Shown: one piece after another, positions 3-64,000 of the stretch
How positions within the stretch are numbered: the first letter of the stretch is position 1
How the letters are laid out: the number at the start of each line of letters is the position of its first letter
Assembly (NCBI GenBank): GCA_030141605.1
Contig: JAQGDQ010000049.1
Coordinates: forward strand, 124,001 to 188,000
Source: Tubiluchus corallicola
Taxonomy: Eukaryota > Animalia > Priapulida
Direction: 5' to 3'
DNA length: 64,000 nucleotides
The notes under the pieces: model-generated
Databases searched by the model: none
The model's input: only the letters and a program-made list of their open reading frames with translations
What the model was told of the DNA's origin: nothing
Translations under genes and position numbers: made by a program

Positions 3-2906
3 AATGTATGTCATACTACGGTGTTAACAGCTTGCTTAATTGAAGAATTAAATGCCGACTTGAAGATGTCTAATTTAAATTCCTTAGCAGAAGGTGTTTT
101 TCGACCTCACTGCACAAATTCCGGTGTTTACAGTCCCGTTCAATTTCATCACAGCGGGAGTTATTCTTGGTGTACAACAGAAGCAGGTCAACCAATTCCT
201 GGAACGACACAGTCGATTGGGTCCTTACCTATTGCTTGCGACGTCTTCAGAAGTAAACCTGGCAATTGTTTCGATTCTGATAAGTTTAAGGAAGATAAAA
301 GGGCATGTCCAATACAGTCATGTGAAAAAGACAGTGATTGTTTGGGAGACCAGAAATGTTGTTACTTTAATGCATGTGGATATGTGTGTATTACTCCGTC
401 ACCACTATATATCAATAAAGCAGGAATATGCCATGAACCAAAATATTTTAATGGTACACAATGCCCAGCTAAGTCATGCACAAATGATATTCATTGTCCA
501 GCAGATCAAAAATGTTGTCACTTTGTTGCATGTGGTAGTGTTTGTTCTGCTCCGATATCAAATAAGGAGTTTAATTTATGTAACGACATCTGCAAATGTG
601 TTAAAAAACCCTGCTCATCAGATGCATACTGCACTGGTGACCAAAATTGTTCCTATTCTCAAAGATGTGGCACTGTCTGCAATGTGGTTGTACTAAATAA
701 AAGTGAGCATGATGGTTGCTATAATAATGCTAATAAACGGATAGAATGTCTTAATGATCAAGGTAATGTTTTGAAGTGTGAACATAACAAAAACTGTCCC
801 AATGAGAAAAAGTGCTGTACTTTTAATGCTTGCAATTCATTATGTACAAGTTTAGCATTATCGCTGAATAAACGGGGGATTTGTCCTCCTTTTCTTTATC
901 CAAGTGACAAGTTTTGTCCTAGTCAGGCATGCTATAATGACATTGATTGTCCTTCAGATAAAAAGTGTTGTTATTTGGAAACATGCGGACCTGTTTGCTA
1001 TAGCCCATTGACGTTTGAACTGAAGCCTGGCTTATGTATTGACAGAATTGGCTTAAGCAAGTGTCCGCTTCATAAATGTGTTAAAGACTCGGATTGTCAA
1101 GGATTAGCAAAATGTTGTCCATCTGCCCGATGTGGCAATGTTTGCACAATTCCGATACTGAATGGCTTACAGATCTGTATGTACAATATAGAAGAGTGTC
1201 CTTTAAAATGTGACTATGGATACACACTTGATGATGAGACACTTTGCCCCATTTGCAAGTGTAAACATTCTCCATGTGAAGGTGTCGTCTGTCCAGGTTC
1301 GCAGGTTTGCAATACAGTTATTATAAAGTGTGGAAGCGTGTCTTGTCCTGCCCTAGCAAGATGTGAGGACATTCAAAGAAGTAAAGTTGGCACTTGTCCT
1401 GAATTCGGTAATTTGACAAGAAGTGAGTGTCCAAAGTTGTTGTGCAACGCAGATGCAGATTGTCCTGCCGAAGAAAAGTGCTGTCCATTTACAGAATGTG
1501 GAAGAATTTGCTCCATACCTATATTAACTGCTTGCCAAGTTGAGCAAACAAACAGTGATGTATTACTCCTACAGCCGTATTCAGGAGCTTACATGCATCG
1601 TCCTCAGTGTTTAAGTAATGGAGAATACAGTCCATTGCAGTTTCATAATACGATCGGTTACGCTTGGTGTGTTCTGCAACATGGTCAACCCATTCCAGGG
1701 ACAAAACTGTCAGCAGACTCTATACAAGCATCAATGTGTGTGGAAGCTAGACGGAGTAGTCGAGTATGTTGGCATTCTGCAGCATATAAGTTTGGTAAGT
1801 GCTCAGGGCAATCGTGCCACCATGATAATGAATGCAATGAAACAGAATTGTGCTGTGAGACTGCCAGCTGCGGAAGGGTGTGCTCCATCCCTTTGACCAT
1901 TGGCCCAAATTTATGTGAATTTGAAGAAGCTGACTGTCTTACGAAATGTATCTATGGTTATTCAGTTCACAAGACAACTCTTTGTCCTTCTTGTAAATGC
2001 AAATCGTCTCCATGCAAAAATATCAAATGCCCACCATCGCAGCGGTGTAAAACTATTAACATACCATGTGGAACTACTATGTGCCCAAAACTTGCAAAAT
2101 GTTTTTCTGTGAAAACAAGACAAGTGGGAACTTGCTTTGGTGTGGAAACATTTGCTCTTAAACAATGTCCAGCACAACCCTGTGATAATGATACAGACTG
2201 CGTAACAAGTGAAAAATGTTGTTATTTTGCAAACTGTGGTTACGTTTGTTCACTTCCTTATTTAACGCCTTGTCAGGTTGAACAAGCAAACTTTGATACG
2301 TTATCTGAAATTCAAACACAAATTATGCCTGAGTATTTATACCGGCCACAATGTCTAAGCAATGGTGACTATCGGCCAGTGCAAATTTCACCCCGTGCTG
2401 GCTACTTGTTTTGTGTTACTAAGGAAGGGGAAAGAATTCCAGGTACAAAACAAGTATTAGGATCGCCCTTTATCGGCTGTCAGGTTGCCAGAAATATTGA
2501 GTGCAGTCCAGAAAGTAATTGTACATTAAAGTGTTTGCACGGATTTGACACTAATGCCGAAACATTTTGTCCTCTTTGCAAATGCAAAGCTTCTCCGTGT
2601 GAGAATGTTGTCTGTCCAAATGACCAAGAGTGTGTACTAGTCAGTACAGATTGTGGAATGCATAAAGATTGTCCGAAACTTGTCAAATGTAGGCCTACAT
2701 TTAAACCTGAAATACGGACTTTTCCTGTAGGCGATACAATTTTAGAAAATTTTCCCTTGGGTTTGTGTATTGGTGTTATTCTAACGGTTGTCGTTTTGTG
2801 TGCTGCGATTTCTTGCACTATTATTGTTATAAAGAAAAGACGTAGTAAGAGGCAGGAAGACGACGACTGCACGTGTGGTTCACCTTGCTGCCTATTATGT
2901 AATTAA
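3..2906 (+). CDS. Membrane-anchored multidomain Cys-rich protease-inhibitor-like protein (about 9 WAP/4-disulfide-core, 3 thyroglobulin type-1, 3 antistasin-like and 3 follistatin-N-like modules, C-terminal TM); 5'-partial
   Basis: The frame is open from position 3 (NVCHTTVLTAC...), so the true start lies upstream of the window. WAP motifs such as KPGNC..C..SCEKDSDCLGDQKCCYFNACGYVC; Tg-1 motifs RPxC..xGxYxPxQ..WC...GQPIPGT; antistasin-like CPLKCDYGYTLDDETLCPICKC; hydrophobic LGLCIGVILTVVVLCAAISCTIIVI followed by KKRRSKR; stop TAA at 2904-2906. Confidence 0.88.
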   Translation, partial: NVCHTTVLTACLIEELNADLKMSNLNSLAEGVFRPHCTNSGVYSPVQFHHSGSYSWCTTEAGQPIPGTTQSIGSLPIACDVFRSKPGNCFDSDKFKEDKRACPIQSCEKDSDCLGDQKCCYFNACGYVCITPSPLYINKAGICHEPKYFNGTQCPAKSCTNDIHCPADQKCCHFVACGSVCSAPISNKEFNLCNDICKCVKKPCSSDAYCTGDQNCSYSQRCGTVCNVVVLNKSEHDGCYNNANKRIECLNDQGNVLKCEHNKNCPNEKKCCTFNACNSLCTSLALSLNKRGICPPFLYPSDKFCPSQACYNDIDCPSDKKCCYLETCGPVCYSPLTFELKPGLCIDRIGLSKCPLHKCVKDSDCQGLAKCCPSARCGNVCTIPILNGLQICMYNIEECPLKCDYGYTLDDETLCPICKCKHSPCEGVVCPGSQVCNTVIIKCGSVSCPALARCEDIQRSKVGTCPEFGNLTRSECPKLLCNADADCPAEEKCCPFTECGRICSIPILTACQVEQTNSDVLLLQPYSGAYMHRPQCLSNGEYSPLQFHNTIGYAWCVLQHGQPIPGTKLSADSIQASMCVEARRSSRVCWHSAAYKFGKCSGQSCHHDNECNETELCCETASCGRVCSIPLTIGPNLCEFEEADCLTKCIYGYSVHKTTLCPSCKCKSSPCKNIKCPPSQRCKTINIPCGTTMCPKLAKCFSVKTRQVGTCFGVETFALKQCPAQPCDNDTDCVTSEKCCYFANCGYVCSLPYLTPCQVEQANFDTLSEIQTQIMPEYLYRPQCLSNGDYRPVQISPRAGYLFCVTKEGERIPGTKQVLGSPFIGCQVARNIECSPESNCTLKCLHGFDTNAETFCPLCKCKASPCENVVCPNDQECVLVSTDCGMHKDCPKLVKCRPTFKPEIRTFPVGDTILENFPLGLCIGVILTVVVLCAAISCTIIVIKKRRSKRQEDDDCTCGSPCCLLCN

Positions 2907-4442: not shown

Positions 4443-6595
4443 TTAAGGCTCTGTATATGTGGCAGAGATATACAAGATGAAGTGATATATTATAAAATGT
4501 TTAGCTATGTTGGTTCTACAGAAAGGCACAATGTATTGATTAAATCTTGTATTATGTCTCTTAGATGTCAATTTGACAGGAATTGCAAAAAACTTAGGAA
4601 ATAGTCTATAATTGCATTTATACATGAATACTGCAATATTCAATTTGATTAAATCATCTAATTGCATAATTCTACATTCACGGTAAAGAAGTAAAGGTAC
4701 TTCACTACGTTTCATTAGGCCATACATTAACCTTAAAAATTTTCGTTGCAACGTTTTTAAGCATATTAGTTTAGATGGATATGTGGGGCCCCAAATAATG
4801 CTGCAGTAATTGAGATAAGGTAAAACCAGACTATTATACAAGATTAGTAAGTGTTCTTTCGAAAGACTGCGTTTAATGTGAGTAATGATGCCTATATTTT
4901 TAGCAATTTTAAGTCTGATGTAAGAGATATGTGATTGCCAGTCTAAGTGTTCATGTATGACAATACCTAAGAATTTAATCTGTTTTACTTGTTGAATATA
5001 ACTATTTTCAATTTGTAATGTCAAATTTGGCATTCTCTTGTTTCTTGATCTAAAAACTACAAATTTAGTTTTGGAAGCATTTAGTGATAATTTATTACTC
5101 CTAAACCAGTTTGATATTTGCTGCAATTCATTGTTTATTTCAGCTTCATTAACAGTATTGTAATATTTAAATATTAAACTGGTGTCATCAGCAAACTGCA
5201 GGATTTTTCCATTATTAATGCAATGTTTTATATCATTAATGTACACAAGAAACAAGAGTGGGCCAAGTATCGACCCTTGTGGAACACCACAAGATATTAA
5301 TTTTGAGTTAGATATATAGTTATTATACTTTACTGCTTGTAACCTGCCAGATAGGTAACTTACAAACCAATTATTCGCAACACCTCTTATTCCATAGTGG
5401 TATAATTTGTTAATTAAAATTTTATGATCAACAGTGTCAAAAGCTTTTGATAGATCACAGAAAATACTCACAGATAACTTATTATCTTCAATATCTCTGA
5501 TTATGTTGGTCAGCATATCAATTAAAGCCATTTCTGTAGTACTGCCTTGACGAAATCCATACTGTGTGTCAATTAATATGCTTTGTTTATGTAAATAATC
5601 TGTAAGTTGCAAAGACACACATTTCTCAATAATTTTCGAAAAACATGGCAGTAATGAAATGGGCCTATAATTATTTATACAGTGTGGATCATCAGCTTTA
5701 TGAATAGGAACTATTATGGACTGCTTTAGCTTATTAGGGACAATTCCAGAGGTAAGTGATAAATTAATAATATGGGTTAAAGGTATGGCAATATATTCAA
5801 TAATATCAAGCATTATTCTGGGAGAGAGCTGATCAATACCGGTACTTTTATTTGGGTGGAATGACTTGCAGATTCTAATGATTTCATCTTTAGTTACAGG
5901 TTGAAAGAAGAAGGAATGTGGGTAATTTCCTTTAAGATAAGAATTTGGGTCAGTATTTGTAGGTTCAATGTTGTTTGATAATAAAGGGCCAATGTTTACA
6001 AAGTAGTCATTAAAAGCATTAGCAATTATATTTTTGTCATTAGTTAACTGGTCATTTACTTTTATAGAAGCAGGCAAGGATTCACGAGATTTATGCATCA
6101 ATTCCTTCATTACATTCCAGGTTTTTTTTTATATTATTTTGATAAGTTAGTAATTTCTGTTGATAATAGTTTTGCTTGGAAATTTTTATCAAATTAGTAA
6201 GTTGATTTCTGTACTGTGTATATTGTTCCTTGTTGATTTTGTTTTTAAGCACAGATCGATAAAGTTTGTTTTTATGTTGAATGCTTTTTAACATAGCTTT
6301 AGTTACCCAAGGTTTTTTTATTTTAGGTAGTAATTGGTCAGCTGAAGTTTTAACATGAGTATGGTAAATATTGCTTAACATTTCATGAAATTTTTCATAT
6401 GCTGAATCCGGATCATTATTATTTAATAGAATTTCGTTCCAACATATGCTTGATAAATCTGAAATAATTTTTCCTTTGACGTGTTCATTATATAAAATTT
6501 TTTTGATAAACTGTGTATCAGTTAAGTCTAGATTGAAATCAGCAATCATAAAATTTGGTAAGTGGTCCGATATATCAGTCAATAAGTTACCAGCT
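4443..6595 (-). mobile_element. Truncated non-LTR retrotransposon ORF2 (CR1/L2-group LINE): end of APE endonuclease plus reverse transcriptase, one frameshift
   Basis: ORFs 6091-6582 (TDISDHLPNF) and 4443-6110 (NYRPISLL, DLSKAFDTVDH, GVPQGSILGPLLFLVYIND, QFADDT) join into one frame if one base is removed from the T9 run at 6122-6130. Confidence 0.92.
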
Positions 6596-18399: not shown

Positions 18400-21040
18400 T
18401 TGTAAACACAGATTAAAAGCATTAATAACGAGCTTTTTAAAATTAATGTTACCAAACCTTAAAGATAAGCCATACTTTCTTCTAAAGTGACAATGACTAT
18501 AGTTAGTTAAATACAACATTTATTGAATACTGTCACTGTCAATGCTCGAGTTTTGAATTTTCTTTAAAAAATTTAATTTTTCACAATCAATTAGAAAGTT
18601 TGCAGTCATAGTACCACAGTAATTCATGAAAACCTTGACACTCTCATTACGTCTATAATTTAAAATCTTTTTATAGGCTGTGTTCCAGCAAACTTTTAAA
18701 ATATTTTCTTGCTCAAAAGATAATAAATTAGCTTCTAATGCGTGCAACAAAACTGGTAAACAATATGAATTTATTAGTGTTCTAGACACTGTTTCATTAC
18801 ATCTCCTTCCTAGAGTTGGCAACATGGAGTTCAACGATCCATATAATTTCCTTTTATTTATAGCAATGTTTATTTTAAAAAAAATCAGATTTTATATCAA
18901 TTCAAGTATACCAAATCAGTGTTTTGCCACAAAAAATATTTTACCAACACCAAGACCTGCATTACCTGTATATAACAACGAGGTTTTACTAGGATTAAAT
19001 GTAATAGACCAAGAGTTGACCATACATTTCACAGATTTTGAACATTTTCTTAAGATGATTATATGAACCAACCATTAGGGTTATATCATCAGCATACATG
19101 ACTGATCCCACAAAAGTTTCGCCAACCCAAACCTGATTCACGCAGTTGCTTTATTAGATCATTCGAGTAAATTGCATACAAAACAAGCGACAATGTGCCT
19201 CCCTGCTTAATGCCTGAATTGATACGAAATTCAGAACAAAATTTGTTGTTCCATTTTACAACAGCGTTTGCCTTGTTATACCGATTGATCAATATTCTAA
19301 TAAAAAATCGAGGTAAATTATTTTCTTAAATTTATAGTACCATCCGCTGTACAGTACTTAATCAAAAGCTTTAAATGCGTCCAAGAAAACCATATAGACA
19401 GGATTATTTCTCTGGTTAAAAATGACATAGTTTTTTTAATAGTAAAAGTGGCGTGTGAACGACTGGAGTTGCTTTTATATTCGAATTGAAGCTGATTAAT
19501 TCCGAGATACATTCCAAACTTCATTAATAACCCTGATTCAAACAATTTTGAGATAACTGGAGAGGGAGAGTTACTGCAAGCTAGTTATCAAAACTAGTAA
19601 AGTCACCTTGATTATTTTTTATTACAGAAGAAATTACACCTTTGCCAAAGTCACTGGGTATATAACCATGATTAAGCATTACGTTAAATAACGATGTCAG
19701 ATACAAGGCTAAAACATTCGGCGAATAAAGTTCATCTAATTCAGCTGATTTGCCTTTCTCCATATCGTTAATTAGTTGCAGAAATACATTTGCATATTGT
19801 TAAGTGCTCTACCTGCTACCTGAATTGACTCATAGTCATTAACAATGTTATCAAGCTGAAAAACATTTTCAAAACACGTTTTAAATTCAGCTAGCATTGC
19901 TTTTCCTCCCTTAGCTTCATTTAATTTATTTGTTACAGTTTTCGTTTTAGAACCGTGCCTTTTCTTTCATTTACTCCAAAAGCGATTTTGATTTCTTCCT
20001 GATTTTCAGTTCATTGCTTTCCAGTTGGGCTTTTTTCTGAGCATCATTAATAGCCATTTTATAATTTGATTTACATTGTATCCTATACGCATTTGTATAG
20101 CCACATATAGGTTTGGCAATGCTATTCCATATTCACGCATTAATAGACTTACGTTTTAAAGAAGAGAGAGTTCATCATTCCACCAATGTTTCTGAAATCC
20201 TACAGGATAACACGGGACGTGTGCTTTACCTGCCCTAAATAATGTTTGCGTTATGTTATCATAAAACTGATGAATTTGCAAACTATGCAACATTCATTTG
20301 GGCATTCCCTCAGTAAATGCCACGGTATTCTAATTTGACCTATGGTACGATAATAATTTTATACGCATGCAAATTTATTTTTTTCCCAATTCATGAAATG
20401 AGGTTTTTTAGTTTTGCAATAAACTTCTCTGTTTATATTTTCGGATGTAAACAAGAAACTGATAGGAAAATGATCAGACGTATTGTCACCATCACTAATA
20501 ACTTGAAGACCTGGAGTATTATTGGCCATGTGTTTAGAACAAATTGTATGGTCAATATAATTGCAACGATTTAACGAATTCTTATTATAAGTATATGCAT
20601 CAGGTATTATGTTTTTGTCCCATTCCAGATCATTGGTTTTCACAAATACAACCAGCGCTTGCTGATTTTTCGAAATTTTATGTCTTTCTACATTCAAATC
20701 CCCAACAATTAAAACACTGCGTCATATATCACCATTATACCATCTATTACTGTTAGCACCTCTTCAAATTGGTATGCATTTTCTTCATTACACGTATAAT
20801 CGTCATCAAAAGGCGTGCACACATTTACCATTGTTACATCCCTACTGGTATTGATATTTTTAAGCTTTACCGCTAAGCATCGCGAATTAATAGTTTTAAC
20901 CATTTCTACATACTTTGCTAAACTTTTACGATAAAATATATATACACCTCTAAAAGCACAGCCTATCAGAATTCCCTTTTGAACAAAGTAATATGAGTAA
21001 TAACATATAATTTGCATGTTTTACCCATAATTTACTCAGA
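18400..21040 (-). mobile_element. Decayed non-LTR retrotransposon ORF2 (APE + RT), many frameshifts; different family from 4443-6595
   Basis: Collinear fragments: endonuclease (INSRCLAVKL, IDHTICS, DNTSDHFPI), GYIPSDFGKGVISSVIKN, GIKQGGTLSLVLYAIYSNDL, MYADDI at about 19082-19099, SYCLPVLLHALE. Confidence 0.85.
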
Positions 21041-21939
21041 AACATGTCATTTCACTTGATATTTTTTGTACAACATTCCAGCCTAATTCGTGTGTTGCAC
21101 CATTACATTCGGGGCAGTGTTTTGAAAGACCTATATATATATATATATATATATAGCTGTGAGTTGGCTCAAGATCGTCAAAAACAATTTTTGTTTAACC
21201 GCCCTACAGTTTCCAAGGTTCTGGAAAAACAACAAAAAGACAGAATTCATTACCCGCCGCTCATTCCATAAACAATATAATCAGTAACTTAGAACAAAAC
21301 AAGTAAGGACACAACATTCAACTAATGAATAACATGTAGGGTATATGCCCTAGCATTTGCTGGCGCTGGTCTCGAACCGAAGACGGACCCACTAAGCGTG
21401 TCCGCAATCCACTCTTGCACTCTAGTACCATTCCTTTTACGCTGTAGATCATCAATACCAAATTTTACATTCAAATTGTTGATGATGCATCAGTTTCTTA
21501 GTGCTGTAAGAGGGCTACATTTTGGCGAGAAAACGCGGCATGATCGCATGAAATACCGTATACCTATCCTCAATAGTTTATAAGAGGTCAAAAAACTTTG
21601 TGTGCAAATATAATATAAAAACTCTGTAGAGTTATTCAGACATGCGTGTCTGAATTGTTTAGATTTCAGATTATTTAGAAATTCAGATTTATTTAGACAG
21701 GAATTCAGTGAAAATGGTGCAATATTAAATTTGGCGAAAATACTGAAATTAGTGAATCATTGTGTAACTAAAACTATCTATGGATTTGATTTATTGCTTT
21801 TGACTTATTGCTTAACTTTTTACTGTGCTTGCACATTCTACATTTTAGTTTGATTTTATGTATTTTATAACAATGGCAATATTTTGTGACTACAAGCTGC
21901 TTAATTTCTAAACACAATGTATGATATGATATTAACTAG

Positions 21940-22853
21940 ACAGACCCTTAAATAATACTAACTGGAAAGCTGTGAGCGTGTACTCATCGAGCCCACCAAA
22001 CTGTTCAGTTTCAACTGCTGGTTCTCTTAAAGATCTTTATACACCTAATGACATTTTACTGCTCCAGTTTGGAGGAACAGCCTATGATAACAGCATGCTG
22101 ATTGAATACATTAGAAAGCAGTGGTTAGTAGCACCGACCATCGATCCTGCTACAGGTATAGTGAAAGATACATCACAAGTGAAAGAGTCGGCTGCAGTGG
22201 ATAAATTGCTCAGAGAAAGAAGAAATGGGTTTTATGTGGAAAGTGGCGCAGCAGATGGTAGCATCTCCAACTCTCTCTTCTTTGAGAGGAATCGTGGATG
22301 GTCTGGACTCCTCGTTGAGCCCAATCCATTATCGTTTAGAAAACTGTTGAGGCAAAAACGAAATGCGTATTTGGTTAACGCCTGTTTAAGTCCCACAAAT
22401 CGGTCAGACAAGTTGGATTTTACAACAGCTGGTTTAGTTGGTGGTCTGACTAATGCAACAGATCCGAATCGTGATAAAAGAATAAAAAGATGGTTCAAAG
22501 GTTTCGCGAAAATTCAAAATGTGCAGTGCTTTCCGCTTTACTCCTTAATGCTTGCTATTGGCCGGACACACATTGATTATTTTTCTTTAGATATTGAAGG
22601 CGAAGAACTATCTGTGCTACAAACAATTCCTTTTAATAAGCTTAATATAGATGTGATGACAGTAGAGTACTTTTCAACAAATGGCACACACGTAGACGAA
22701 AAAAATACAATGACAAAACTGAGGAACATACGCACGTTTATGCAAAGAACAAATCTGTACCAGGAGGTCGCCATTTTACCACCAGGTGACGAAATATTCG
22801 GTCATGACGTTGTATTTTTACGGAGAGATCAAGACAGTTCTGCTATAAAGTGA
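21940..22853 (+). CDS. FkbM family (Methyltransf_21) SAM-dependent methyltransferase, Star-like; probably the terminal exon with the N-terminus not identified
   Basis: Motifs GFYVESGAADG-SISNSLFFERNRGWSGLLVEPNP, VQCFPLYSLMLAIG, HIDYFSLDIEGEELSVLQTIPF, IDVMTVEY. In-frame stop at 21933-21935 and AG dinucleotides at 21938-21939 and 21942-21943 suggest a splice acceptor rather than the GTG start at 21972. Confidence 0.85.
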
Positions 22854-45090: not shown

Positions 45091-46353
45091 ATGGAAGCAA
45101 ATGTAACAGGCCAGCAACCACTCGACGACAAACAGTACGAAGATTTTATGTACTTGATGAGGAAAGTAGTGCAGAGGTACTCGATACCCGTTGTAGCAGT
45201 CATAGGCGTGTTAACGAACACTCTTGCAGTGATAGTACTGACTCGAAAAAACATGAAGTCGTCCACTAATTGCTACCTTACAGCACTGGCCATTTTTGAT
45301 GCTTTGTACATATTGTTTAACTTCTCGCTAAGTCTTATGCATCAACCGGGAATGCTGGAAAATCACACCTACATTGACTATGTCCCTTGGGGATTCCCCC
45401 TTTCAGACCTGTGCAGCAACACGTCAGTGTGGCTTGTGGTGTCATTCACTATAGAACGATATATCGTGGTTTGTCATCCACTGAAGGGTAAGGCATTCTG
45501 TACGATAACCAGGGCAAAAATTGTCATTGTCAGTGTGTTCTGTTTTGCTCTTGCTTGCATCCTGCCAACCTTCTTCGAATGGACAAGCGGTTGGGAAACG
45601 GATACAGAGACTAACGAGACGTACTATTTTTTCTTTCACACAGATTTGGGAAAAAATCCATCATTCCAGGATGCCTTCTATTGGTTCACGGGATTGACAT
45701 TCAGCTTAATTCCAATCCTGCTGCTAATAATCTTCAACGGGTTTCTAATGAGATCTGTTCATCTAGCGCAAAGACAGCGTCGTAAGATGACAATGACGAC
45801 AGCGACGAAGCACCATGGAGCATCAGACAGCAATCAGGAAACTCGTATCACAATCATGTTAATCGTCATAGTCGTTGTATTTCTCATCTGTCAACTACCG
45901 TCAGCTGTTCTACTGATCTGGTCCAAAGATATGAAGCAGGACTCCCCCAAGCAGAAATTGGCCGTAGGTCTTAACAACATCAGTAATTTCTTGATGGCCC
46001 TCAATGCCACCTGTAACTTCTTCTTGTATTGTTTCCTAAGCGAGAAATTTCGTCAGACGTTGATGGAACTCTTCTTTCCTTGCTTTAAGTGTGCAAAACG
46101 AAGAAAGAACAAAGGTGCAGAATCTATGACTAAGACGACTACGGTTTGCGTCCCGCACAGGACAAAAGGGAGACCAAAACCTGGCGAAGCAGGAAAGAGA
46201 TACAGCTGGAATCCGCTACCTGAAAATTCGGACTCTGAATATCGGCGTAACAGCTATGAACCGATGACAGAACTAGAAAAAGACAAAAAACAGTTATTTT
46301 CTGGTAATACCCAACGAAATGGCAAGACGAATAATTCGTTTCTTGCTCCATAA
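45091..46353 (+). CDS. Intronless class A neuropeptide GPCR of the FMRFamide/proctolin/myosuppressin/sex-peptide receptor group
   Basis: Seven hydrophobic segments; VLTRKNMKSSTNCYLTALAIFD, SFTIERYIVVCHP (ERY), CQLP in TM6 and NFFLYC in TM7 are typical of this group. The ATG at 45091 (aacATGG) is followed by an N-glycosylation site NVT; candidate polyA signal AATAAA at 46931. Confidence 0.92.
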   Translation: MEANVTGQQPLDDKQYEDFMYLMRKVVQRYSIPVVAVIGVLTNTLAVIVLTRKNMKSSTNCYLTALAIFDALYILFNFSLSLMHQPGMLENHTYIDYVPWGFPLSDLCSNTSVWLVVSFTIERYIVVCHPLKGKAFCTITRAKIVIVSVFCFALACILPTFFEWTSGWETDTETNETYYFFFHTDLGKNPSFQDAFYWFTGLTFSLIPILLLIIFNGFLMRSVHLAQRQRRKMTMTTATKHHGASDSNQETRITIMLIVIVVVFLICQLPSAVLLIWSKDMKQDSPKQKLAVGLNNISNFLMALNATCNFFLYCFLSEKFRQTLMELFFPCFKCAKRRKNKGAESMTKTTTVCVPHRTKGRPKPGEAGKRYSWNPLPENSDSEYRRNSYEPMTELEKDKKQLFSGNTQRNGKTNNSFLAP

Positions 46354-52846: not shown

Positions 52847-53363
52847 ATGTGTAAGTGGTTTAAACACAGGTGCTGTATAACTTGTTTGTCAAATGCATCA
52901 TGGACTTCAACAGTAATGTTTCCACATCAGCTGCAGCAACCATTATTACTCATGCAGAATTCGAAAGATCTGCTGAACTGTAAATTCAAAAATCGGTTCC
53001 TACAGATGCAGAGTTGCCATTACTTCTCTAGTGTGGTGCTTACTTGCATATCCGGTACTTATGGTAGCTATGTTCAAAACTGCCGCTGCTTACATTCTTT
53101 AGCGAGTAAAACTCGGCGAACTATTTTGTGCAAAAATTCGTTTCATGCATCCAAAAAACCTAATCTTCTTCAGTATTCCTTTACGGAATTGTTATCACAA
53201 CAGATATGGATGAATAGGAAACATGAGTTACTTTCTAAACCTTGCTATCGTAATTTAAACATTTTAAAGAGACATTTAACATTCAGTCCAGAAGGAATCG
53301 TGCGTTCTGCTCCAACAGCCTGGCAGCCATATTTGAGGCTCATAAGATTTGATAAACCAACAG
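52847..53363 (+). CDS. COQ2: COQ2 coding exon 1 (long N-terminal presequence-like region, then PYLRLIRFDKPT)
   Basis: Conserved UbiA/COQ2 start WQPYLRLIRFDKPTG; donor acag|gtattt in phase 1. The start Met is uncertain because several in-frame ATGs are present. Confidence 0.85.
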
Positions 53364-54514: not shown

Positions 54515-54681
54515 GTACTTGGTTGCTTTACTGGCCATGTACGTGGAGTATAGGTCTGGCAGCCATGCCGGGACATCTTCCTAACATTTACTTGTTGGCC
54601 TTATTTGGTGCTGGAGCTTTTTTGATGCGAGGTTCCGGTTGCATCATCAATGATTTGTGGGACAAAGAGTATGACAAAAAG
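54515..54681 (+). CDS. COQ2: COQ2 coding exon 2
   Basis: ttag|GT ACT TGG: [13 protein letters not shown]...[19 protein letters not shown] (first Asp-rich motif); donor aag|gtaaaa. Confidence 0.95.
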
Positions 54682-55151: not shown

Positions 55152-55273
55152 GTTGAACGTACGAAGCTAAGACCTCTGGCAAGTGGAGAGCTGAACATTT
55201 TTCAAGCTTTATGTTTCCTTGGGTTTAATCTGAGTTTATCCCTTATTATTCTTCTCCAGCTTAATTCATACAG
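55152..55273 (+). CDS. COQ2: COQ2 coding exon 3
   Basis: ctag|VERTKLRPLASGELNIFQALCFLGFNLSLSLIILLQLNSY(S)|gtatgg; 122 nt, phases fit the neighbouring exons. Confidence 0.95.
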
Positions 55274-56587: not shown

Positions 56588-56673
56588 TGTTTTGCTTGGT
56601 GCTAGTTCCTTAGTGCTAGCTGTCTCCTATCCTTTAATGAAGCGTTACACATATTGGCCTCAAGCATATTTAG
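56588..56673 (+). CDS. COQ2: COQ2 coding exon 4
   Basis: ttcag|..VLLGASSLVLAVSYPLMKRYTYWPQAYL(G)|gtaggt; 86 nt, ends in phase 1. Confidence 0.95.
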
Positions 56674-58590
56674 GTAGGTATGACTTTATGTACTTTTGCA
56701 GTTAATCCACTAATTTTTCAAGAGTTAAAAATAATGCTGTTTTTGGCCTTAGGATGAGTAACACAGCTGAATTGCCTCAGTGCATGTGCTTAACAACCAA
56801 AGTTAAACAGTGCCAAGCCTGGTTAGTAAGTGGCATTAATGACCACCAGCTGTTTACCTGCGTAAGGGGGATATGTGCACAGCTGAATACTGGTTCATTT
56901 TCTAATTTTGTAATGATATGGTTAATGGCGAGCAGGATTCTGGTCCTACCACAACCATCTACATTACATAGATGCTGTTGAGTCCTGGATCCTGGTTTGC
57001 AGAATGCTAAACTGTATAATGGTTAATTATTTTTTACTGAAATTTGATGTTCTTTGATCAGAGCCATCTTCAGGTGTTTTTGCAAATTAATTATTGTAAC
57101 TATCCTTTTTCCAAAAGTCATAATTGAACTTTTAACAGTTTTTGTACTGTAAGATGAACTGCAAAAAACTCATGTAGCTATTAAGCCAATTGGCCCTTTA
57201 ATAAAGAGAAGAAATAATGTTCTTTTGTTTAGTAGTTGATGACTAGGTTATAATCTTCACAGCATTACTGCAATTTTTCTAGAGAAGTTTGTTGACAACA
57301 AGCTAAAACAAGTGACTTACACAAAGATTAGGGCCCTTGTTACAGCTAAAAAACTCTATTTCTTTTGCAAGCATGTTTTATTCGATGTTTTTCATAATTG
57401 TTAACAATATTATGTTGATAAATTGCCAATGTTTTACGTTGACAAACTGTTATGTTGATAATGTATTCCTTTCAATTTTGACGTTATTTTGCTTCTGTGT
57501 CCTTATAGCAAATGATACCATGCTTTTTCGCAGTTAACGTAAGCTTCAGCTTGACAAATAAATCGCAAACTCTTAATTTTCCTATGCGGTTGACAATTGA
57601 CCTGATTCATGAGCTACATGTCTACTGTTATGCCCGGAATTTTGTTATGTGTATTTTCCCATGTTAACTTAGCAAATTATTTTTCTGTCTCTGTATTTTC
57701 AGTTTTTGTTTGCATGTGTCTTTGTGTGTCTTACGTTGGCTTACATACCCACTTTTTTATTCTTGGCAGCACCTAATTTGTATATTTTTTGTCTATACAG
57801 TTGTTAGTCAGAATGTGTTTTACCCTTCATTAATTTCTAAATATCTAAACTAGCTGCTATAATTCTGCATATTTATCTAATTTTTACCAGGTTGGTGCTT
57901 ATATTGTCATTATTTTCACCGATTTAATTAATACTGGTGAAATACATACATCTATGTACTTAGATATCAAATAGTTATCATACATAAAGTTCTTACACGC
58001 AGAATAAGAACAAGCAATAATTTTTAGTTTTAGTGGTCAAAATCGTTGAACAGAAATGTGGAAAGTGACATTTCAGTACAAGTTGTGGAATATGTGTGCC
58101 CTACTGATGATTAGTGGAAGATGCTATAGCATTGAGCATTTGTAATGTTGCTTGCTAAGGGTGTATTATGAGGCATGAAAGTGCTAAGGCCAAGCCTTAT
58201 GTGAATTGTAAAATATAAGAGTGTTTCAGACTCTTTAGAACTAATATCACATATCATAAACTATCATAAGAATCAATTTTCGCAACACTGATTTTTGTTA
58301 CTGAATGCCATCATAATTGGAATTTAATGTATCTGTCCACTACATGGTATTCATTTCATTTCAATACACATTTTTATTTGATTACATGCTGTATTATCAT
58401 ATCATTTTATAAATCCCTACATTATTTTAGTTATGGCAACACTTGAACAAGTTTTACACAGCCATCCAAATTTTGCCAAAATGTAAAGTGTAAGTGCTTA
58501 ACTAAAACCAATAAAACAATCATTGGGATCAACTTTTTCCATATTAATCATAATCATTAATTATAATATGACTGTGAATGCCAAGCATTT

Positions 58591-58733
58591 CATTTCACAA
58601 CTATTATTACCCCATGCAGATGAGTTGAAAAAAGGAGACGCTGAAAAATTGTCGATTAATCGGGATAGTCGACAATTTTTCAGCGTCTCCTTTTTTCAAC
58701 TCATCTGCATGGGGTAATAATAGTTGTGAAATG
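58591..58733. repeat. Perfect 65-bp inverted repeat with 13-nt loop in COQ2 intron 4
   Basis: 58591-58655 is the exact reverse complement of 58669-58733. Confidence 0.95.
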
Positions 58734-59767
58734 TATGATAACAATTCTTTCGAGTAAGTCATTTTTGAAAAAATAACATGTTTCCGTTCAGTATTTTAAA
58801 GAGTAGACTATTCTGGCTTATAGCTTAAGATTGATTTTCCAGTTTTCCTGTAACACATTTATTGAGCATTTGTGAAAGAGGCAACACTTGGTTAGACTGT
58901 ATAGATGTGTAAAAATTTGATTCTTGTAAGCCAGTGACCAATTTGCCTCTCGACTCATTATCAACTTTAATTTGAAACATTTCGTCAGTACTCAGTACCA
59001 TCAAACAAGAAATGAAGTCTTATCTGTCTAGCAATATTTTAGTAATAAGAGGTACCCTTTATTTTAATGTCATCATTTCATATATACATTTGAAAACTAT
59101 TGCTCTGTACTAAAATGTGGTCTAGCCTTACCGTGTATGTTTGTATGGATTTCAGTATTTGTGACTGCAATGCTTAAGATACATCAAATATTTATTCTAA
59201 AAATTGTATGTTTGTACTTGTCTCAAATCTAGATGTTGGGCTAGATGAATGTTTTCAAACCACGTCTTGCCTGGACCCTGGATAAACAAAAACACTAAAA
59301 TATAAAAACCTGTTATATCAACACTAGGACAAGCATTGTTTGAGCTGCATGTTCAATAATCCCCATATTCCAAATGGATATTATATAATTGTGTATTATA
59401 CTGTCGTATCTTTTTGGCTACAAGTAAGAAAATGATTTAAAAAAACCGTGCTGTTCATTTGGAATAACATAATATCTTGAATATCTTGACTTAATATGTA
59501 CCTGATGTTTAAGTTAGTTTTACAAAGAGTATAAATGTTTGAATGCCGTCTGTTATGATTCTGTTCCAACAGATGTCACTGAAACATAGAACATTATAAA
59601 GTGCCTATATTACATACGCAAACACACACACACACACGTGTACTCTATAGACAGCTAGAGAAGACATGAATGTTTGTTGTATTACAGAAGTGCCATGCTA
59701 TATTGTCATCTGTATTAGTATAAGAGAATAAATATGTTTAATCTTTCCACACTCCTCCCCCGTACAG

Positions 59768-59901
59768 GTGCTACACTAAACTGGGGAGTGCTCCTGGGTT
59801 GGTCAGCATGCCAAGGTTCCATTGACACGGTTACACCTCTTCTGGTGTACGCTTCCTGTGTCAGCTGGACAATGATATATGATACCATATATTCCCACCA
59901 G
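59768..59901 (+). CDS. COQ2: COQ2 alternative exon 5, 'e'-type (rhodoquinone isoform)
   Basis: tacag|GT GCT ACA CTA...: GATLNWGVLLGWSACQGSIDTVTPLLVYASCVSWTMIYDTIYSHQ|gtgagg; 134 nt, phase 1 to 0; Leu (59776-59778) and Ser (59893-59895) are 39 residues apart. Confidence 0.92.
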
Positions 59902-62359
59902 GTGAGGCATGATCTAGATACCTGTAAATTGTGACGTGTTGTACTTATACTGCCTCTAAAAATCTGTTGTTGAATGTCCTCTTGCACTCTTAGAAGTAGA
60001 GCATGTATAACTTTTGCACAATAACTTGCTCTGTAACTCACCACAACACAAATCATAAATCACAATAATCAGTGAAATTAAACAGTGTCACATTCTCTTG
60101 AATGCGTGCTTAAACTACTTTTTAGAAAATGTTTTTTTAATAATGCTCTGTGTAGCTAATGATATATTTATTTGCTTATTAGAAGTAATTTGACGTGATG
60201 CATGCTATAATGTATCGTAGGGTGCTTAATTGGAATGGCAAATGTGGCTTCCTGATCATATGTTTTTAAATCTAGTAAAACTGTGTATATTTCATGTAGC
60301 CATATGCAGTTCTCAGTAGTGTGTACAATATTCAACACTTGCCAGAGCCAGAAAGACAGTTTTTCAAAAATAGTTTTTTCCGATCCACAGAAAATTAGAT
60401 TGTACATGAACTTCTAATTAAACTTGCTCAGGCTGTAATTTAAAATTGCTGTTGCATTTTCAAGGATTTTGATCATTTGTTAAATGACGGTTTCACTCAA
60501 AATTTTGAAAAGTGAAAGCTTAATGCGGGACTTTGAAAATAATACTTCCGTTGCTCTTTGTCTCATTTCCTGTCATTACTGCCTGCTATAGTGCTTAATT
60601 GCTCATCTCTTTTTACCATTTTCTATTTTATAATAACCGTAAATGAGTTTGACATTCAACATTTATCAGATCCTTAAGGGATTTATGTAGTCTGACTATT
60701 ACAAAGGCTATTTTTGGTCTGCTTTATAAAGCTAATAAACATGAGAAAATCTCGTAAATGGGACGTCTTGATGTTTTAGGCGACACACTAGCTGTTATTT
60801 AAGTAATTAGCGTGAAATAACATTAATGGGTAGTTAGCATGATTATTGTTTGTTTGCATCAATCTCTATTTGCTTCCTTTGTTTGCTTATTTATTTGTTT
60901 CTTTTGGTTTGTTTGTATGTTTCTGTCCTTGTATGTCTCAGTTTGTTTGTTTGTATATTTGTTTGTTTGGTTAGTCATTCATCAATTCATTTGTTTATTT
61001 ATTTAAATTCAATTTTCCTTCTATCTTTCTATTTTTTATTAACTTAAATACAAGCTCTTTGTTTATTCAGTGTTTCTGTTAGCATATAGTTTAGTCTATT
61101 GATGCTAGAATGATAATTATTTAATTTTAATTGTGCTATTATGGCAAGTACATATAAATATTGTACTACATTTTGGCCAGGGACTTTATTTTTAATTTAA
61201 CAGTGTAACAAAGTCGATATTACAAATTCTTTAAATTCATTCATTTTTATACATTAGTTATGACCATGTTGCATGTTTGTTGTGCATGCTCTTGTGCAGG
61301 TGGCTGGTTTTGTTGCCTGTCTTTGCATTGCCGTGTAACTGTAATGTAGACGTAACTTACTCGCTTTTAAATTATGGTATTCCTAGGCGCGAGAAACAAG
61401 CAAAGTAACATGACAGTATTGAAATCAGGTCAATCGTCAAATCATCCTGCATTTGGTTAAATGAAGTATCTTTTACTTACAATTAGTTTTCAATTTTTTC
61501 GCATTTTCAAATAATATTCAATACTTTGCCAATTAATGTAATGGGTAAAAGAGTTGATGCCTTGGTTATTTTCGCTCTATGTTACACTTTTTGTCTGTAA
61601 ATTTTTTGATACTTCATTTACAACATTGAAATCCAGTGGTTCTGGGTTCGAGTCCCACTTGTGTCGATTCTTTCAAATTGATCTACTACTCTGGTTACCT
61701 TTCACAGCTTATTCAGCCTTAATTATGTACTTCTGGCTGTCCTGGACCAAGCGATAGGCTAACCATCTGTTTTCCTCGTGTGTGGCTAAGACTTCATGTT
61801 TAAATGCTGCATCCATCTGTTCTTTGATAAGGGCATGGCATCATTGTTCTTCTTCTTTTACTATCATGTTACAATTTGGCAGTTGCTTTCTTCCAGTCTC
61901 ATTTGGGCTGAGGAGATAAAAGGTGTACTTAGCTGCGATACTTGAGCAGTGCTGAGCTTAGTTAGTACTTGGCAAATGGATGTGTGATTGGTGGAAGACA
62001 GCTTCCATCATTTTGCTTTCAGCTTTTCTTGAAGCACCTCATTTAATTCGGTATCTCATATTGGAGGATTAATCTTTGTAATAAGGTTCCTGTATCGCAC
62101 AATGATTCATCCTTTTTCATAGGCCCTGCCTTTGAGCACTTTGTTCCAGATTGTAGTGAAGCAAAAAACGCATGTATGTTATTTAAAGTAGCCTATTTTA
62201 CCAAATTTCTGTTCTTTAGAATAATCAGTAACTTTGCAGAAATTAATTAGACATTTGACTATAGCATTTCATATTTTCAATTTCATCATTTTTGCTTTTA
62301 GCAGGGCAAGAAAAGTACCTGTTTAACTAAATTTTATGTTTTGCTTGTTTCTCGCGCAG

Positions 62360-62493
62360 GGCTCACATTTAACTTTGGTGCACTCTTGGGATGGGTTGCT
62401 GTGAAAGGTTCCCCTGATCTGTCTGTGGTTCTCCCCCTTTATGCAGGATGCTTTGCATGGACTATCATTTATGACACGATATATGCACATCAG
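62360..62493 (+). CDS. COQ2: COQ2 alternative exon 5, 'a'-type (ubiquinone isoform)
   Basis: cgcag|GG CTC ACA TTT...: [45 protein letters not shown]|gtatga; 134 nt, phase 1 to 0; Phe (62368-62370) and Ala (62485-62487). Confidence 0.94.
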
Positions 62494-62935
62494 GTATGAA
62501 CGTGCTTTAACAAGGGGCATCTTTTCTTCGACAGTCAAATCTGTTTAATGACACAGATTGCTTAACTCTTCTTTTGACTAATATCTGACTTCACCTCACT
62601 CCTACTAGTATACTGTGCACTCATATTAATTTCAACTGTTAGATAACAGTCTCCAAAAAAAGTGTTAAACGGGAATGACTATATTTAAACTTGTGTTTTA
62701 ATGATATTTTTGCTGTTTGTGAGTACGTATATTCTAAAAATTATTTGTATTTAATTTAAGTTTTAAAATTTAGAAGAATAAATGACCATTGCTTGTGTTT
62801 TCTGTGTTTATCATTCCACTATATTTGACGTAAAGAAAGCTTCCTAAGATTAGGACTGATAGGACTGAAGTTGTTCCAAGCTTCTATTAACCAGAACTTT
62901 TCTAACACTGTATTGCTGTTTTCTTGTATGGTTTT

Positions 62936-63073
62936 GGGTATGCGGAATAGATAAAATTGGTTTATATCGTTTTCAGTGCACTCATTTATGCACGCACCCG
63001 CGTGTGCATTTATCTTTTCTGCAGCTGCGCCTCAGGTGGAAACGCATATGCATCCCGATGCTATGTAAACACC
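62936..63073. mobile_element. Partial MITE copy (family of 41518-41726) in a COQ2 intron
   Basis: Shared ggaataga.aaaat.ggtttatatcgttttca.tgcac...gatgcta.gtaaacacc. Confidence 0.65.
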
Positions 63074-63587
63074 ACTTATATTTCAAACATAAATGTGTTT
63101 AACAATGAACTTAATGCATGAATCGTAGATTTTGCAACTAAACATGTTCTAAAGAAAGGAAATTGTGAAAAAGTCACGCAACAGTTTGTATTTGAACCTG
63201 GGCCCTTTTACTTAAGTTTCAAGCACGTTTGAGCAAGATTAGTTTCAGAATTTAGGAATTGTATGTTTAAGCCAGCATAATAGTAATCCTAAAAGTAAGA
63301 TTATCAATAAGTAATAATTATCTTTATTTGGATAACGGTATTGTACCCAATTGCAGTGCTTGTAATTAATTGTAAACAGTAAAATAACATTCTTGCAATT
63401 TCTTTGCATCAATTTAGAATGTTTGAACTGGTAGCTATGTGCATATAAATGTTGTTACATAAATGTACAAACAAAATTGATTCTCGGCTTCTACTATAAT
63501 TTGAATCTTCCTGCTCAGTAGTATTGTGTAGTAATATTTTTTATCATCGCTTTCTATCCCATTTTAAACACCATTTTGGTTTTGTAG

Positions 63588-63776
63588 GACAAAGACGATG
63601 ACATGGTAATAGGTGTGAAATCTACAGCACTGCTTTTCAGAGACAATACAAAGAAGTGGTTATCCGGTTTCGGATGCATGATGATTGGTGGACTAGGAGC
63701 AGCGGGATACGCTGCTGGACAAACATGGCCATATTATGCAGGGCTTGCACTGACAGCAGCACATATTGCCAATCAG
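63588..63776 (+). CDS. COQ2: COQ2 coding exon 6 (final exon lies beyond the window)
   Basis: tgtag|DKDDDMVIGVKSTALLFRDNTKKWL...WPYYAGLALTAAHIANQ|gtaaat; 189 nt, completes the second Asp-rich motif. Confidence 0.95.
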
Positions 63777-64000
63777 GTAAATAAGTCTTTTCACGATTTC
63801 GTTGTGCACATGCGCAATTGCTGTAGGTCAAAGGTTAACTGACCCCAATCAACGTATCTTAACTACAACTGTCACATAACTTAACTACAACTGTCAGATG
63901 TCATGTGGATAAAGCAAAGCTGTCTGCTGCATTATTTCAGTAACGTCAGTTGTTTTACATGGTTTTTACTTAATTATGCATTTGTCTGCACATAGAGTGA

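What the first reader, a model, noticed from the sequence alone, without database searches (positions are those of the whole stretch)
59768..62493. COQ2 has tandem mutually exclusive exons encoding a rhodoquinone/ubiquinone switch
Seen: two homologous 134-nt exons with canonical AG/GT sites and the same phases lie between constitutive exons 4 and 6. One reads GATLNWG...YDTIYSHQ and the other GLTFNFG...YDTIYAHQ. Established: in C. elegans, mutually exclusive coq-2 exons 6a/6e choose between ubiquinone and rhodoquinone synthesis, and the RQ isoform carries L204/S243 instead of F204/A243 (Tan et al. 2020, eLife); RQ is built on kynurenine-pathway 3-hydroxyanthranilate. The L/S versus F/A pair here has exactly that 39-residue spacing. 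Inference: this animal makes rhodoquinone and can run fumarate-reducing anaerobic mitochondrial respiration. The ORF track hides this, and gene predictors would probably keep only one exon. It would be new if the organism lies outside the lineages already reported (nematodes, flatworms, molluscs, annelids).
Basis: partly seen in the sequence, partly recalled or inferred. Interest (0 to 1): 0.9.

Follow-up and report, generated by a model that had tools for sequence, protein, structure and literature searches.

The report
Rhodoquinone splice switch in a priapulid
The quinone-making gene COQ2 of what is likely a priapulid (penis worm) carries two interchangeable exons matching those that let nematodes choose between oxygen-based and oxygen-free respiration, plus an intron segment predicted to pair with and hide one exon's splice site, which would extend this anaerobic switch to a new animal phylum and suggest how the choice is made.

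Summary
Confirmed. Two 134-nt exons (59768-59901 e-type L/S; 62360-62493 a-type F/A) sit between COQ2 exons 4 and 6; either keeps the frame, both or neither give early stops. A contig from a probable RNA run joins the e exon to exon 6, skipping the a exon. A neighbouring GPCR nests among Priapulus caudatus paralogues (100/99; spiralian and arthropod placements rejected), so the host is likely a priapulid, outside the four reported phyla; 'rhodoquinone' plus 'priapul' found 0 papers. New here: an intronic element (61387-61404) is a perfect 18-nt complement of the a exon's polypyrimidine tract, and its 3' half pairs with an element in intron 4 around the e exon. The two predicted helices cross and overlap, like the ATE1 switch. 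Unproven: rhodoquinone itself, use of the a exon, the helices in vivo. The e exon keeps three a-type residues, and common origin with nematode and mollusc e exons is favoured but not shown (AU p 0.04-0.34). The scan's earlier notes hold no such finding.

The parts
52847..53363 (+). COQ2 exon 1 (predicted start; long N-terminal region, likely mitochondrial targeting)
   Evidence: Open frame, GT donor, joins in frame to exon 2; no Pfam hit; start codon inferred
54515..54681 (+). COQ2 exon 2
   Evidence: UbiA positions 2-50; spliced to exon 3 in an X5 contig
55152..55273 (+). COQ2 exon 3
   Evidence: UbiA 51-89; X5 contig junction
56588..56673 (+). COQ2 exon 4 (constitutive, upstream of the pair)
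   Evidence: UbiA 93-119; AG/GT sites
57588..57626 (+). Intron-4 element, predicted partner of the 3' half of the dock (core 57590-57607); pairing would loop out the e exon
   Evidence: 17 of 18 complementary to 61423-61440; extended duplex; weaker support than the other helix
59768..59901 (+). Alternative exon 5e (e-type: L3, V7, S42), predicted rhodoquinone form
   Evidence: spliced to exon 6 in X5 contig; on the e side of exon trees
61379..61443 (+). Predicted docking element in the intron between the two exons; 5' core 61387-61404, shared stretch 61404-61413, 3' core 61423-61440
62334..62361 (+). Polypyrimidine tract and 3' splice site of the a exon; perfect 18-nt complement (62340-62357) of the dock, 24 contiguous bases paired in the predicted duplex
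62360..62493 (+). Alternative exon 5a (a-type: F3, A7, A42), predicted ubiquinone form
   Evidence: gap-free in X2 and X3 DNA contigs; use in mRNA not observed
63588..63776 (+). COQ2 exon 6 (constitutive, downstream); the last exon lies beyond the window
   Evidence: UbiA 165-226; joined to exon 5e in X5 contig
45091..46350 (+). Neighbouring single-exon peptide GPCR, used only as lineage marker
   Evidence: Best named hit Priapulus caudatus, 63%; trees

Best explanation
This is a COQ2 gene, likely of a priapulid, with two alternative exons 5 of which only one can be used per protein; the first is spliced into a probable mRNA and is predicted to make the rhodoquinone-pathway enzyme, the second is predicted to make the ubiquinone enzyme, and competing RNA helices likely decide between them. 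Shown: exon structure, frame logic, the junction e-to-exon 6, the two complementary element pairs. Inferred from C. elegans genetics (PMC7434440): the e form prenylates 3-hydroxyanthranilate and supports fumarate-reducing respiration under low oxygen or sulfide. Inferred from sequence: when the dock (61387-61413) pairs with the a acceptor (62334-62357) the a exon is hidden and e is spliced to exon 6; when the dock (61404-61443) pairs instead with the intron-4 element (57588-57626), e is looped out and the a acceptor is freed. Transcripts with both or neither exon shift frame and would be degraded. My odds by step: mutually exclusive pair 0.95; host priapulid or other scalidophoran 0.88; e form makes rhodoquinone 0.8; a-acceptor helix functional 0.75; competition with the intron-4 element 0.5.
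For: Frame logic: each exon alone gives an open 405-aa frame to the window's end; both stop at aa 357, neither at aa 302. X5 contig joins 59901 to 63588 with GT..AG ends, 98 nt on the short side; no such joint is listed for the five other runs laid. X5 differs from the window at 1 of 134 nt in the e exon against 16 of 276 in three constitutive exons (Fisher p 0.016; chosen after seeing the data). V7 is found in 8 of 8 named e exons and in this e exon. All 16 L/S exons form one side of the tree, 95/90; e precedes a in 17 of 17 species of Tan's supplement 3 (my reading of coordinates) and here. Lineage: GPCR sister to one Priapulus paralogue group (99/94) inside a 6-row clade with both (100/99); AU p 7e-7 against spiralians, 9e-6 against arthropods. 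Helix 1: perfect 18-mer; longest complement in 1000 shuffles 14, in 74 pseudo-acceptors 14, at the five other acceptors of the gene 9-12; both arms single-copy in the window. Only 2 inverted 18-mer pairs with at most 1 mismatch exist between exons 4 and 6 (hairpin element masked) and they share the dock; 0 of 300 shuffles give two adjacent pairs. Energies of the two states are close, -40.6 and -38.4 kcal/mol.
Against: No quinone, enzyme or expression-level data. The e exon has a-type L9, G10 and W33, present in 19 of 19 a exons, and its e-minus-a similarity score (-10.9) lies below all 8 named e exons (+1.9 to +38.2), though above all 19 a exons (-38 to -56). The L/S versus F/A counts are circular, as rows were classed by them. 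With those two columns dropped the tree no longer rejects a local duplication (p 0.34). Siboglinids keep the e exon while lacking most kynurenine enzymes, and the S/A site is not diagnostic in annelids (PMC12403961, passages). X5 is only guessed to be RNA and is one contig. Lineage rests on one gene, with no kinorhynch, loriciferan or nematode row in the tree. The intron-4 duplex (-34.9) beats 100 of 100 shuffled probes but not the best of 53 intron tiles (-36.5). The two cores overlap only through their extensions (61404-61413) and could form together as a long-loop pseudoknot. No covariation evidence exists.
Confidence: 0.7

Rival explanations
1. The pair arose by a separate duplication in this lineage and reached L, V and S by convergence; it still makes rhodoquinone, but says nothing about a protostome ancestor.
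For: Exon X is the most a-like of the L/S exons compared; AU p for X+Y together is 0.041, 0.055 and 0.34 in three analyses; locus L039 has an L/V/S exon in the reverse order with an a-like remainder; Tan 2020 cites mrp-1 as a case of repeated origin.
Against: Best trees always put X with nematode and mollusc e exons; same order, same length and phase; the first five residues equal those of C. elegans 6E.
Confidence: 0.2
2. The e-type exon is expressed but does not make rhodoquinone in this animal (kept for another substrate, or a second ubiquinone form).
For: a-type residues at 9, 10 and 33; siboglinid precedent of e exon without a complete kynurenine pathway; pathway genes not checkable.
Against: Both residues that Tan 2020 found invariant are present; the Aplysia e exon also has L9 and G10 and several unnamed e exons have W33; a reference title records long-term anaerobiosis in a priapulid (title only).
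Confidence: 0.15
3. The exons are mutually exclusive only through splicing factors and frame-shift decay; the complementary elements are incidental or only the a-acceptor helix matters.
For: Both/neither forms carry early stops; the intron-4 pairing is not exceptional by energy; one pair with at most 1 mismatch appears in 21 of 300 shuffles.
Against: The perfect 18-mer sits exactly on the acceptor and exceeds every null; 0 of 300 shuffles give a perfect pair or two adjacent pairs.
Confidence: 0.3
4. The host is a mollusc, annelid, flatworm or nematode, so the exon pair is already known for its phylum.
For: Exon 6 is most similar to bivalve COQ2 among the proteins held (68%), a set that had no priapulid COQ2; only one marker gene was tested.
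Against: GPCR tree and AU tests; best mollusc and annelid GPCR hits are 42% and 40% against 63% for Priapulus.
Confidence: 0.08

Closest known systems
coq-2 exons 6a/6e of C. elegans and other helminths, molluscs, annelids (Tan et al. 2020, PMC7434440; parts 1-4 of 7, passages, supplements 1 and 3 read)
   Same: Tandem 134-nt exons, e before a, same phases, L/S versus F/A 39 residues apart, e form spliced without a.
   Different: Host likely a priapulid, not among the phyla surveyed; e exon keeps a-type residues 9, 10, 33; e exon is 134 nt where the three mollusc and annelid e exons listed are 131; Tan 2020 gives no cis mechanism ('docking' 0 hits, 'secondary structure' only in a reference title).
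COQ2 a/e exons of Alvinella and siboglinid annelids (PMC12403961; passages read)
   Same: Genomic detection of adjacent a and e exons as a marker of anaerobic mitochondria.
   Different: Annelids only; 'priapul' 0 hits in that text; S/A site not diagnostic there.
Human ATE1 exons 7a/7b competing helices R1R3/R3R4 (PMC7797038; passages read)
   Same: Two flanking elements compete for one element; choice works by hiding a 3' splice site.
   Different: In ATE1 both partners touch polypyrimidine tracts and function is proven by compensatory mutation; here the upstream partner is deep in intron 4 (predicted loop-out), the cores are adjacent rather than identical, and nothing is tested.
Docking-site/selector pairings of Dscam1 and mrp1 (search listing and abstracts' first lines; Yue 2017 title only)
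   Same: Long-range competing RNA pairings for mutually exclusive exons.
   Different: Different genes; selectors there usually activate the adjacent exon (recalled), whereas the strongest helix here covers the acceptor.
RquA route to rhodoquinone in freshwater sponges (10.64898/2026.04.08.717022; passages read)
   Same: Extends rhodoquinone to animals outside the four classic phyla.
   Different: Uses a laterally acquired gene acting on ubiquinone, not a COQ2 splice form.

Membership tests
COQ2 a/e mutually exclusive exon pair | Gene is a COQ2/UbiA prenyltransferase | tested here: met
   Pfam UbiA on six exons in order; exons align to COQ2 proteins at 43-64%
COQ2 a/e mutually exclusive exon pair | Two tandem homologous exons, same phase, 131-140 nt, only one compatible with the frame | tested here: met
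   lengths
COQ2 a/e mutually exclusive exon pair | L204/S243 in one exon, F204/A243 in the other | tested here: met
   Residues 3 and 42; same positions in C. elegans 6E/6A by eye and in aligned nematode and bivalve exons
COQ2 a/e mutually exclusive exon pair | e exon spliced into mRNA without a | tested here: met
   One X5 contig, run type guessed as RNA
COQ2 a/e mutually exclusive exon pair | a exon spliced into mRNA without e | tested here: inconclusive
   No contig laid on it in the only probable RNA run; contigs cannot show absence
COQ2 a/e mutually exclusive exon pair | e exon homologous by descent to other phyla's e exons | tested here: inconclusive
   Trees 94/88 and 95/90; AU p 0.041, 0.055, 0.34
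COQ2 a/e mutually exclusive exon pair | e form needed for rhodoquinone; animal contains rhodoquinone | not testable with these tools
   Needs LC-MS or genetics
COQ2 a/e mutually exclusive exon pair | Kynurenine pathway present to supply 3-hydroxyanthranilate | not testable with these tools
   No genome held
Competing-RNA-structure control of mutually exclusive exons (ATE1 type) | One element complementary to two partners flanking the choice | tested here: met
   second partner less well supported
Competing-RNA-structure control of mutually exclusive exons (ATE1 type) | The two helices exclude each other | tested here: inconclusive
   They cross and share 61404-61413, but the 18-bp cores do not overlap
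Competing-RNA-structure control of mutually exclusive exons (ATE1 type) | Conservation or compensatory change across species | not testable with these tools
   No diverged priapulid intron DNA available; loci L030 and L039 give only weak hints of a shared dock (4 of 200 shuffles each)
Competing-RNA-structure control of mutually exclusive exons (ATE1 type) | Disruptive and compensatory mutations change and restore splicing | not testable with these tools
   Needs a minigene

The most novel reading that the evidence does not exclude
Probability: 0.35. Interest if true: 0.85.

Novelty: new member of a known kind. Interest (0 to 1): 0.68.

Why it matters
Tan 2020 calls the patchy distribution of animal rhodoquinone an enduring mystery and leaves single versus repeated origin open. 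A scalidophoran with the same exon pair in the same order adds a slowly changing ecdysozoan branch beside nematodes and favours an old protostome origin. It predicts a measurable molecule in sediment-dwelling priapulids. How coq-2 splicing is steered was not found described in the library searched (1 paper, a reference title only); the paired elements give exact bases to mutate, and COQ-2e splicing is a proposed anthelmintic target in parasites, where the same kind of element can now be sought.

Tried and rejected
No whole genome is held, so kynurenine genes and further lineage markers outside the window were not checked. No holder is on record as RNA: no RNA holder listed. X5 had 1 record on 59300-63790 and none on the a exon: no evidence either way. 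A 1-base gap at 62433 in an X1 contig would break the a exon, but X3 and X2 contigs cover it without gaps; the X4 contig there has 5 gaps whose places were not listed; taken as a likely homopolymer error. Octopus was my first guess from the microsatellites; cephalopod GPCR hits are 27-29%, rejected. No priapulid COQ2 was among the best 120 of 7901 hits, so Priapulus caudatus exons were not compared. An ATE1-style single dock for both acceptors in the window is weak (1 of 60 shuffles, -18.3); the e acceptor's longest perfect complement is 9 nt. A crude complementarity scan between introns put the intron-4 pair barely above 8 shuffles. Rfam: 0 matches. The protein atlas gave no answer. PMC3372258 and PMC5711460 could not be read. 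No structure was predicted: the spliced proteins span several exons and Tan 2020 already places both residues by the substrate site. Supplements of bioRxiv preprints (including the sponge rquA preprint, which may tabulate coq2 forms) and subscription papers were not seen and could hold an earlier mention of priapulids.

Full report
Observation. With exons at 52847-53363, 54515-54681, 55152-55273, 56588-56673 and 63588-63776 they build a COQ2 gene whose last exon lies beyond the window. Pfam UbiA covers the pieces in order and both alternative exons fall on profile positions 122-164. Either exon alone keeps a 405-aa frame open to the end of exon 6; both together stop at residue 357, neither at 302. 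They share 77 of 134 nt and 25 of 44 aa; no third copy is in the window.

Identity of the exons. Tan et al. 2020 (PMC7434440; parts 1-4 of 7 read; passages; supplements 1 and 3) show that C. elegans needs exon 6e for rhodoquinone and name L204/S243 against F204/A243 as invariant. The first exon here has L at residue 3 and S at 42, the second F and A. The C. elegans 6E and 6A sequences, read by eye, start and end like the first and second exon. Among 121 COQ2 proteins examined, 106 had a single F/A segment and the rest had L- or S-type segments, the named ones from nematodes and bivalves. Against 8 named e and 19 a exons, exon X also has the e-type V7 (8 of 8), but a-type L9, G10 and W33 (19 of 19 a exons), and its similarity score lies between the classes. 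The classes were defined by L/S and F/A, so those two columns are not independent evidence. The order e then a holds in 17 of 17 species of Tan's table and here.

Expression. Of six runs listed, X5 is guessed to be RNA. One X5 contig joins the end of exon X to exon 6 with GT..AG ends, skipping the a exon, and another joins exons 2 and 3. No such joint is listed for the other five runs. X5 is a diverged relative: 16 differences in 276 nt of constitutive exons against 1 in 134 nt of exon X (p 0.016, post hoc), so exon X is not decaying. Use of the a exon was not seen; contigs cannot show absence. Its frame is intact in X2 and X3 DNA contigs.

Lineage. The single-exon GPCR at 45091-46350 has Priapulus caudatus as best named hit (63% and 55% for two paralogues; arthropods at most 49%, molluscs 42%, annelid 40%; 75 hits). 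In a quick tree of 70 rows and a careful tree of 27 rows picked from them it is sister to one Priapulus paralogue group (99/94) within a clade holding both (100/99); grouping with spiralians or arthropods is rejected (p 7e-7, 9e-6). The host is therefore likely a priapulid other than P. caudatus, or another scalidophoran; the species was not determined. This is one gene, and no nematode, kinorhynch or loriciferan row was in the set.

Between exons 4 and 6 repeat finder lists a perfect 18-bp inverted repeat, 61387-61404 with 62340-62357, whose second arm is the polypyrimidine tract ending at the a exon's AG, and a 17-of-18 pair, 57590-57607 with 61423-61440, which spans exon X. The first exceeds 1000 shuffles (maximum 14), 74 pseudo-acceptors (maximum 14) and the gene's other five acceptors (9-12), and extends to 24 contiguous acceptor bases plus the AG. 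Both arms are single-copy in the window. These are the only two such pairs once a 68-bp hairpin is masked, and 0 of 300 local shuffles give two pairs with arms within 60 nt, although 21 give one pair. The helices cross, share 61404-61413, and have similar predicted energies (-40.6 and -38.4 kcal/mol). The logic fits: state 1 hides the a acceptor, state 2 loops out e and frees a. Against: the second duplex is not better than the best of 53 intron tiles, the cores could coexist as a pseudoknot, and there is no covariation. The nearest tested precedent is human ATE1 (PMC7797038, passages). Two other animal loci with both exons show only weak hints of a shared dock (4 of 200 shuffles each).

Origin. 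Exon trees place X with nematode and mollusc e exons: 14 L/S rows 94/88 (37 of 67 rows used), 16 rows 95/90 (41 rows); the 67-row tree agrees. Holding X and Y together gives AU p 0.041 and 0.055, but 0.34 once the two diagnostic columns are dropped. With 44 columns this favours, and does not prove, one old duplication. Locus L039, with reverse order and an a-like L/S exon, warns that convergence or exon reshuffling occurs.

What is in print. Ten searches of the held library: 'rhodoquinone'+'priapul' 0 papers; coq-2/coq2 exon searches list nematode, helminth and annelid work (listings); 'coq-2'+'rhodoquinone'+'RNA secondary structure' 1 paper, by a reference title; some searches gave context only. 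The Alvinella paper (passages) reports both exons in annelids and cautions on the S/A site. The sponge preprint (passages) reports rhodoquinone by other routes and has 0 hits for 'priap' in its main text; its supplements are closed. PMC11422605 (passages) shows the e form is needed for sulfide survival in C. elegans. Long-term anaerobiosis in a priapulid is known to me here only from a reference title. PMC2859860 (passages) added nothing on priapulid quinones. Subscription journals were not searched. The scan's own notes hold no look-alike and one related note on kynureninase exons in another genome.

Verdict. It is a new member of a known kind, likely in a fifth phylum, with an unreported and directly testable splicing element. 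Interest 0.68.

Noticed in passing
L001-L029 (e.g. L003:5411-5541, L006:4139-4269, L012:2173-2303, L025:4441-4571, L027:778-908): Animal COQ2 genes in metagenome contigs with a 131-nt e-type (L/S) exon only: in the 5 loci checked, the upstream exon, e exon and downstream exon lie on one contig and tblastn finds no a exon between them (19 distinct exon sequences). Either a dedicated rhodoquinone paralogue or animals that lost the ubiquinone form.
   Followed up: partly
L039:595-1293: COQ2 with the reverse order, F/A exon first and L/V/S exon second; the second is a-like elsewhere and its best matches are a exons. Possible separate origin of an e-like exon in an unplaced animal.
   Followed up: partly
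L030:60-1557: e then a exon, both 131 nt; one intronic element near 999-1024 can pair with both acceptors, ATE1-style (4 of 200 shuffles as good).
   Followed up: partly
window 58591-58733: 68-bp, 99% perfect hairpin in intron 4 beside a high-copy repeat; probably a small transposon; lies inside the predicted e-exon loop.
   Followed up: no
window 52885-52897 and 62433: X1 contigs show a net 9-base deletion in exon 1 and a 1-base gap in a C run of the a exon; the latter is absent from X2 and X3 contigs.
   Followed up: partly
window 3-2903 (+): 967-aa open frame with thyroglobulin type-1, WAP and antistasin repeats and a probable transmembrane end: multi-domain protease-inhibitor-like protein.
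   Followed up: no
window 21936-22850 (+): Single open frame with an FkbM methyltransferase domain.
   Followed up: no
window 4446-6594 (-) and about 18500-21000 (-): LINE-type reverse transcriptase frame and fragments of a second, broken element.
   Followed up: no
proteins P0215, P0276, P0327: Unnamed COQ2 exon segments with L at the first diagnostic site but A at the second, matching the Alvinella paper's caution on the S/A site.
   Followed up: no
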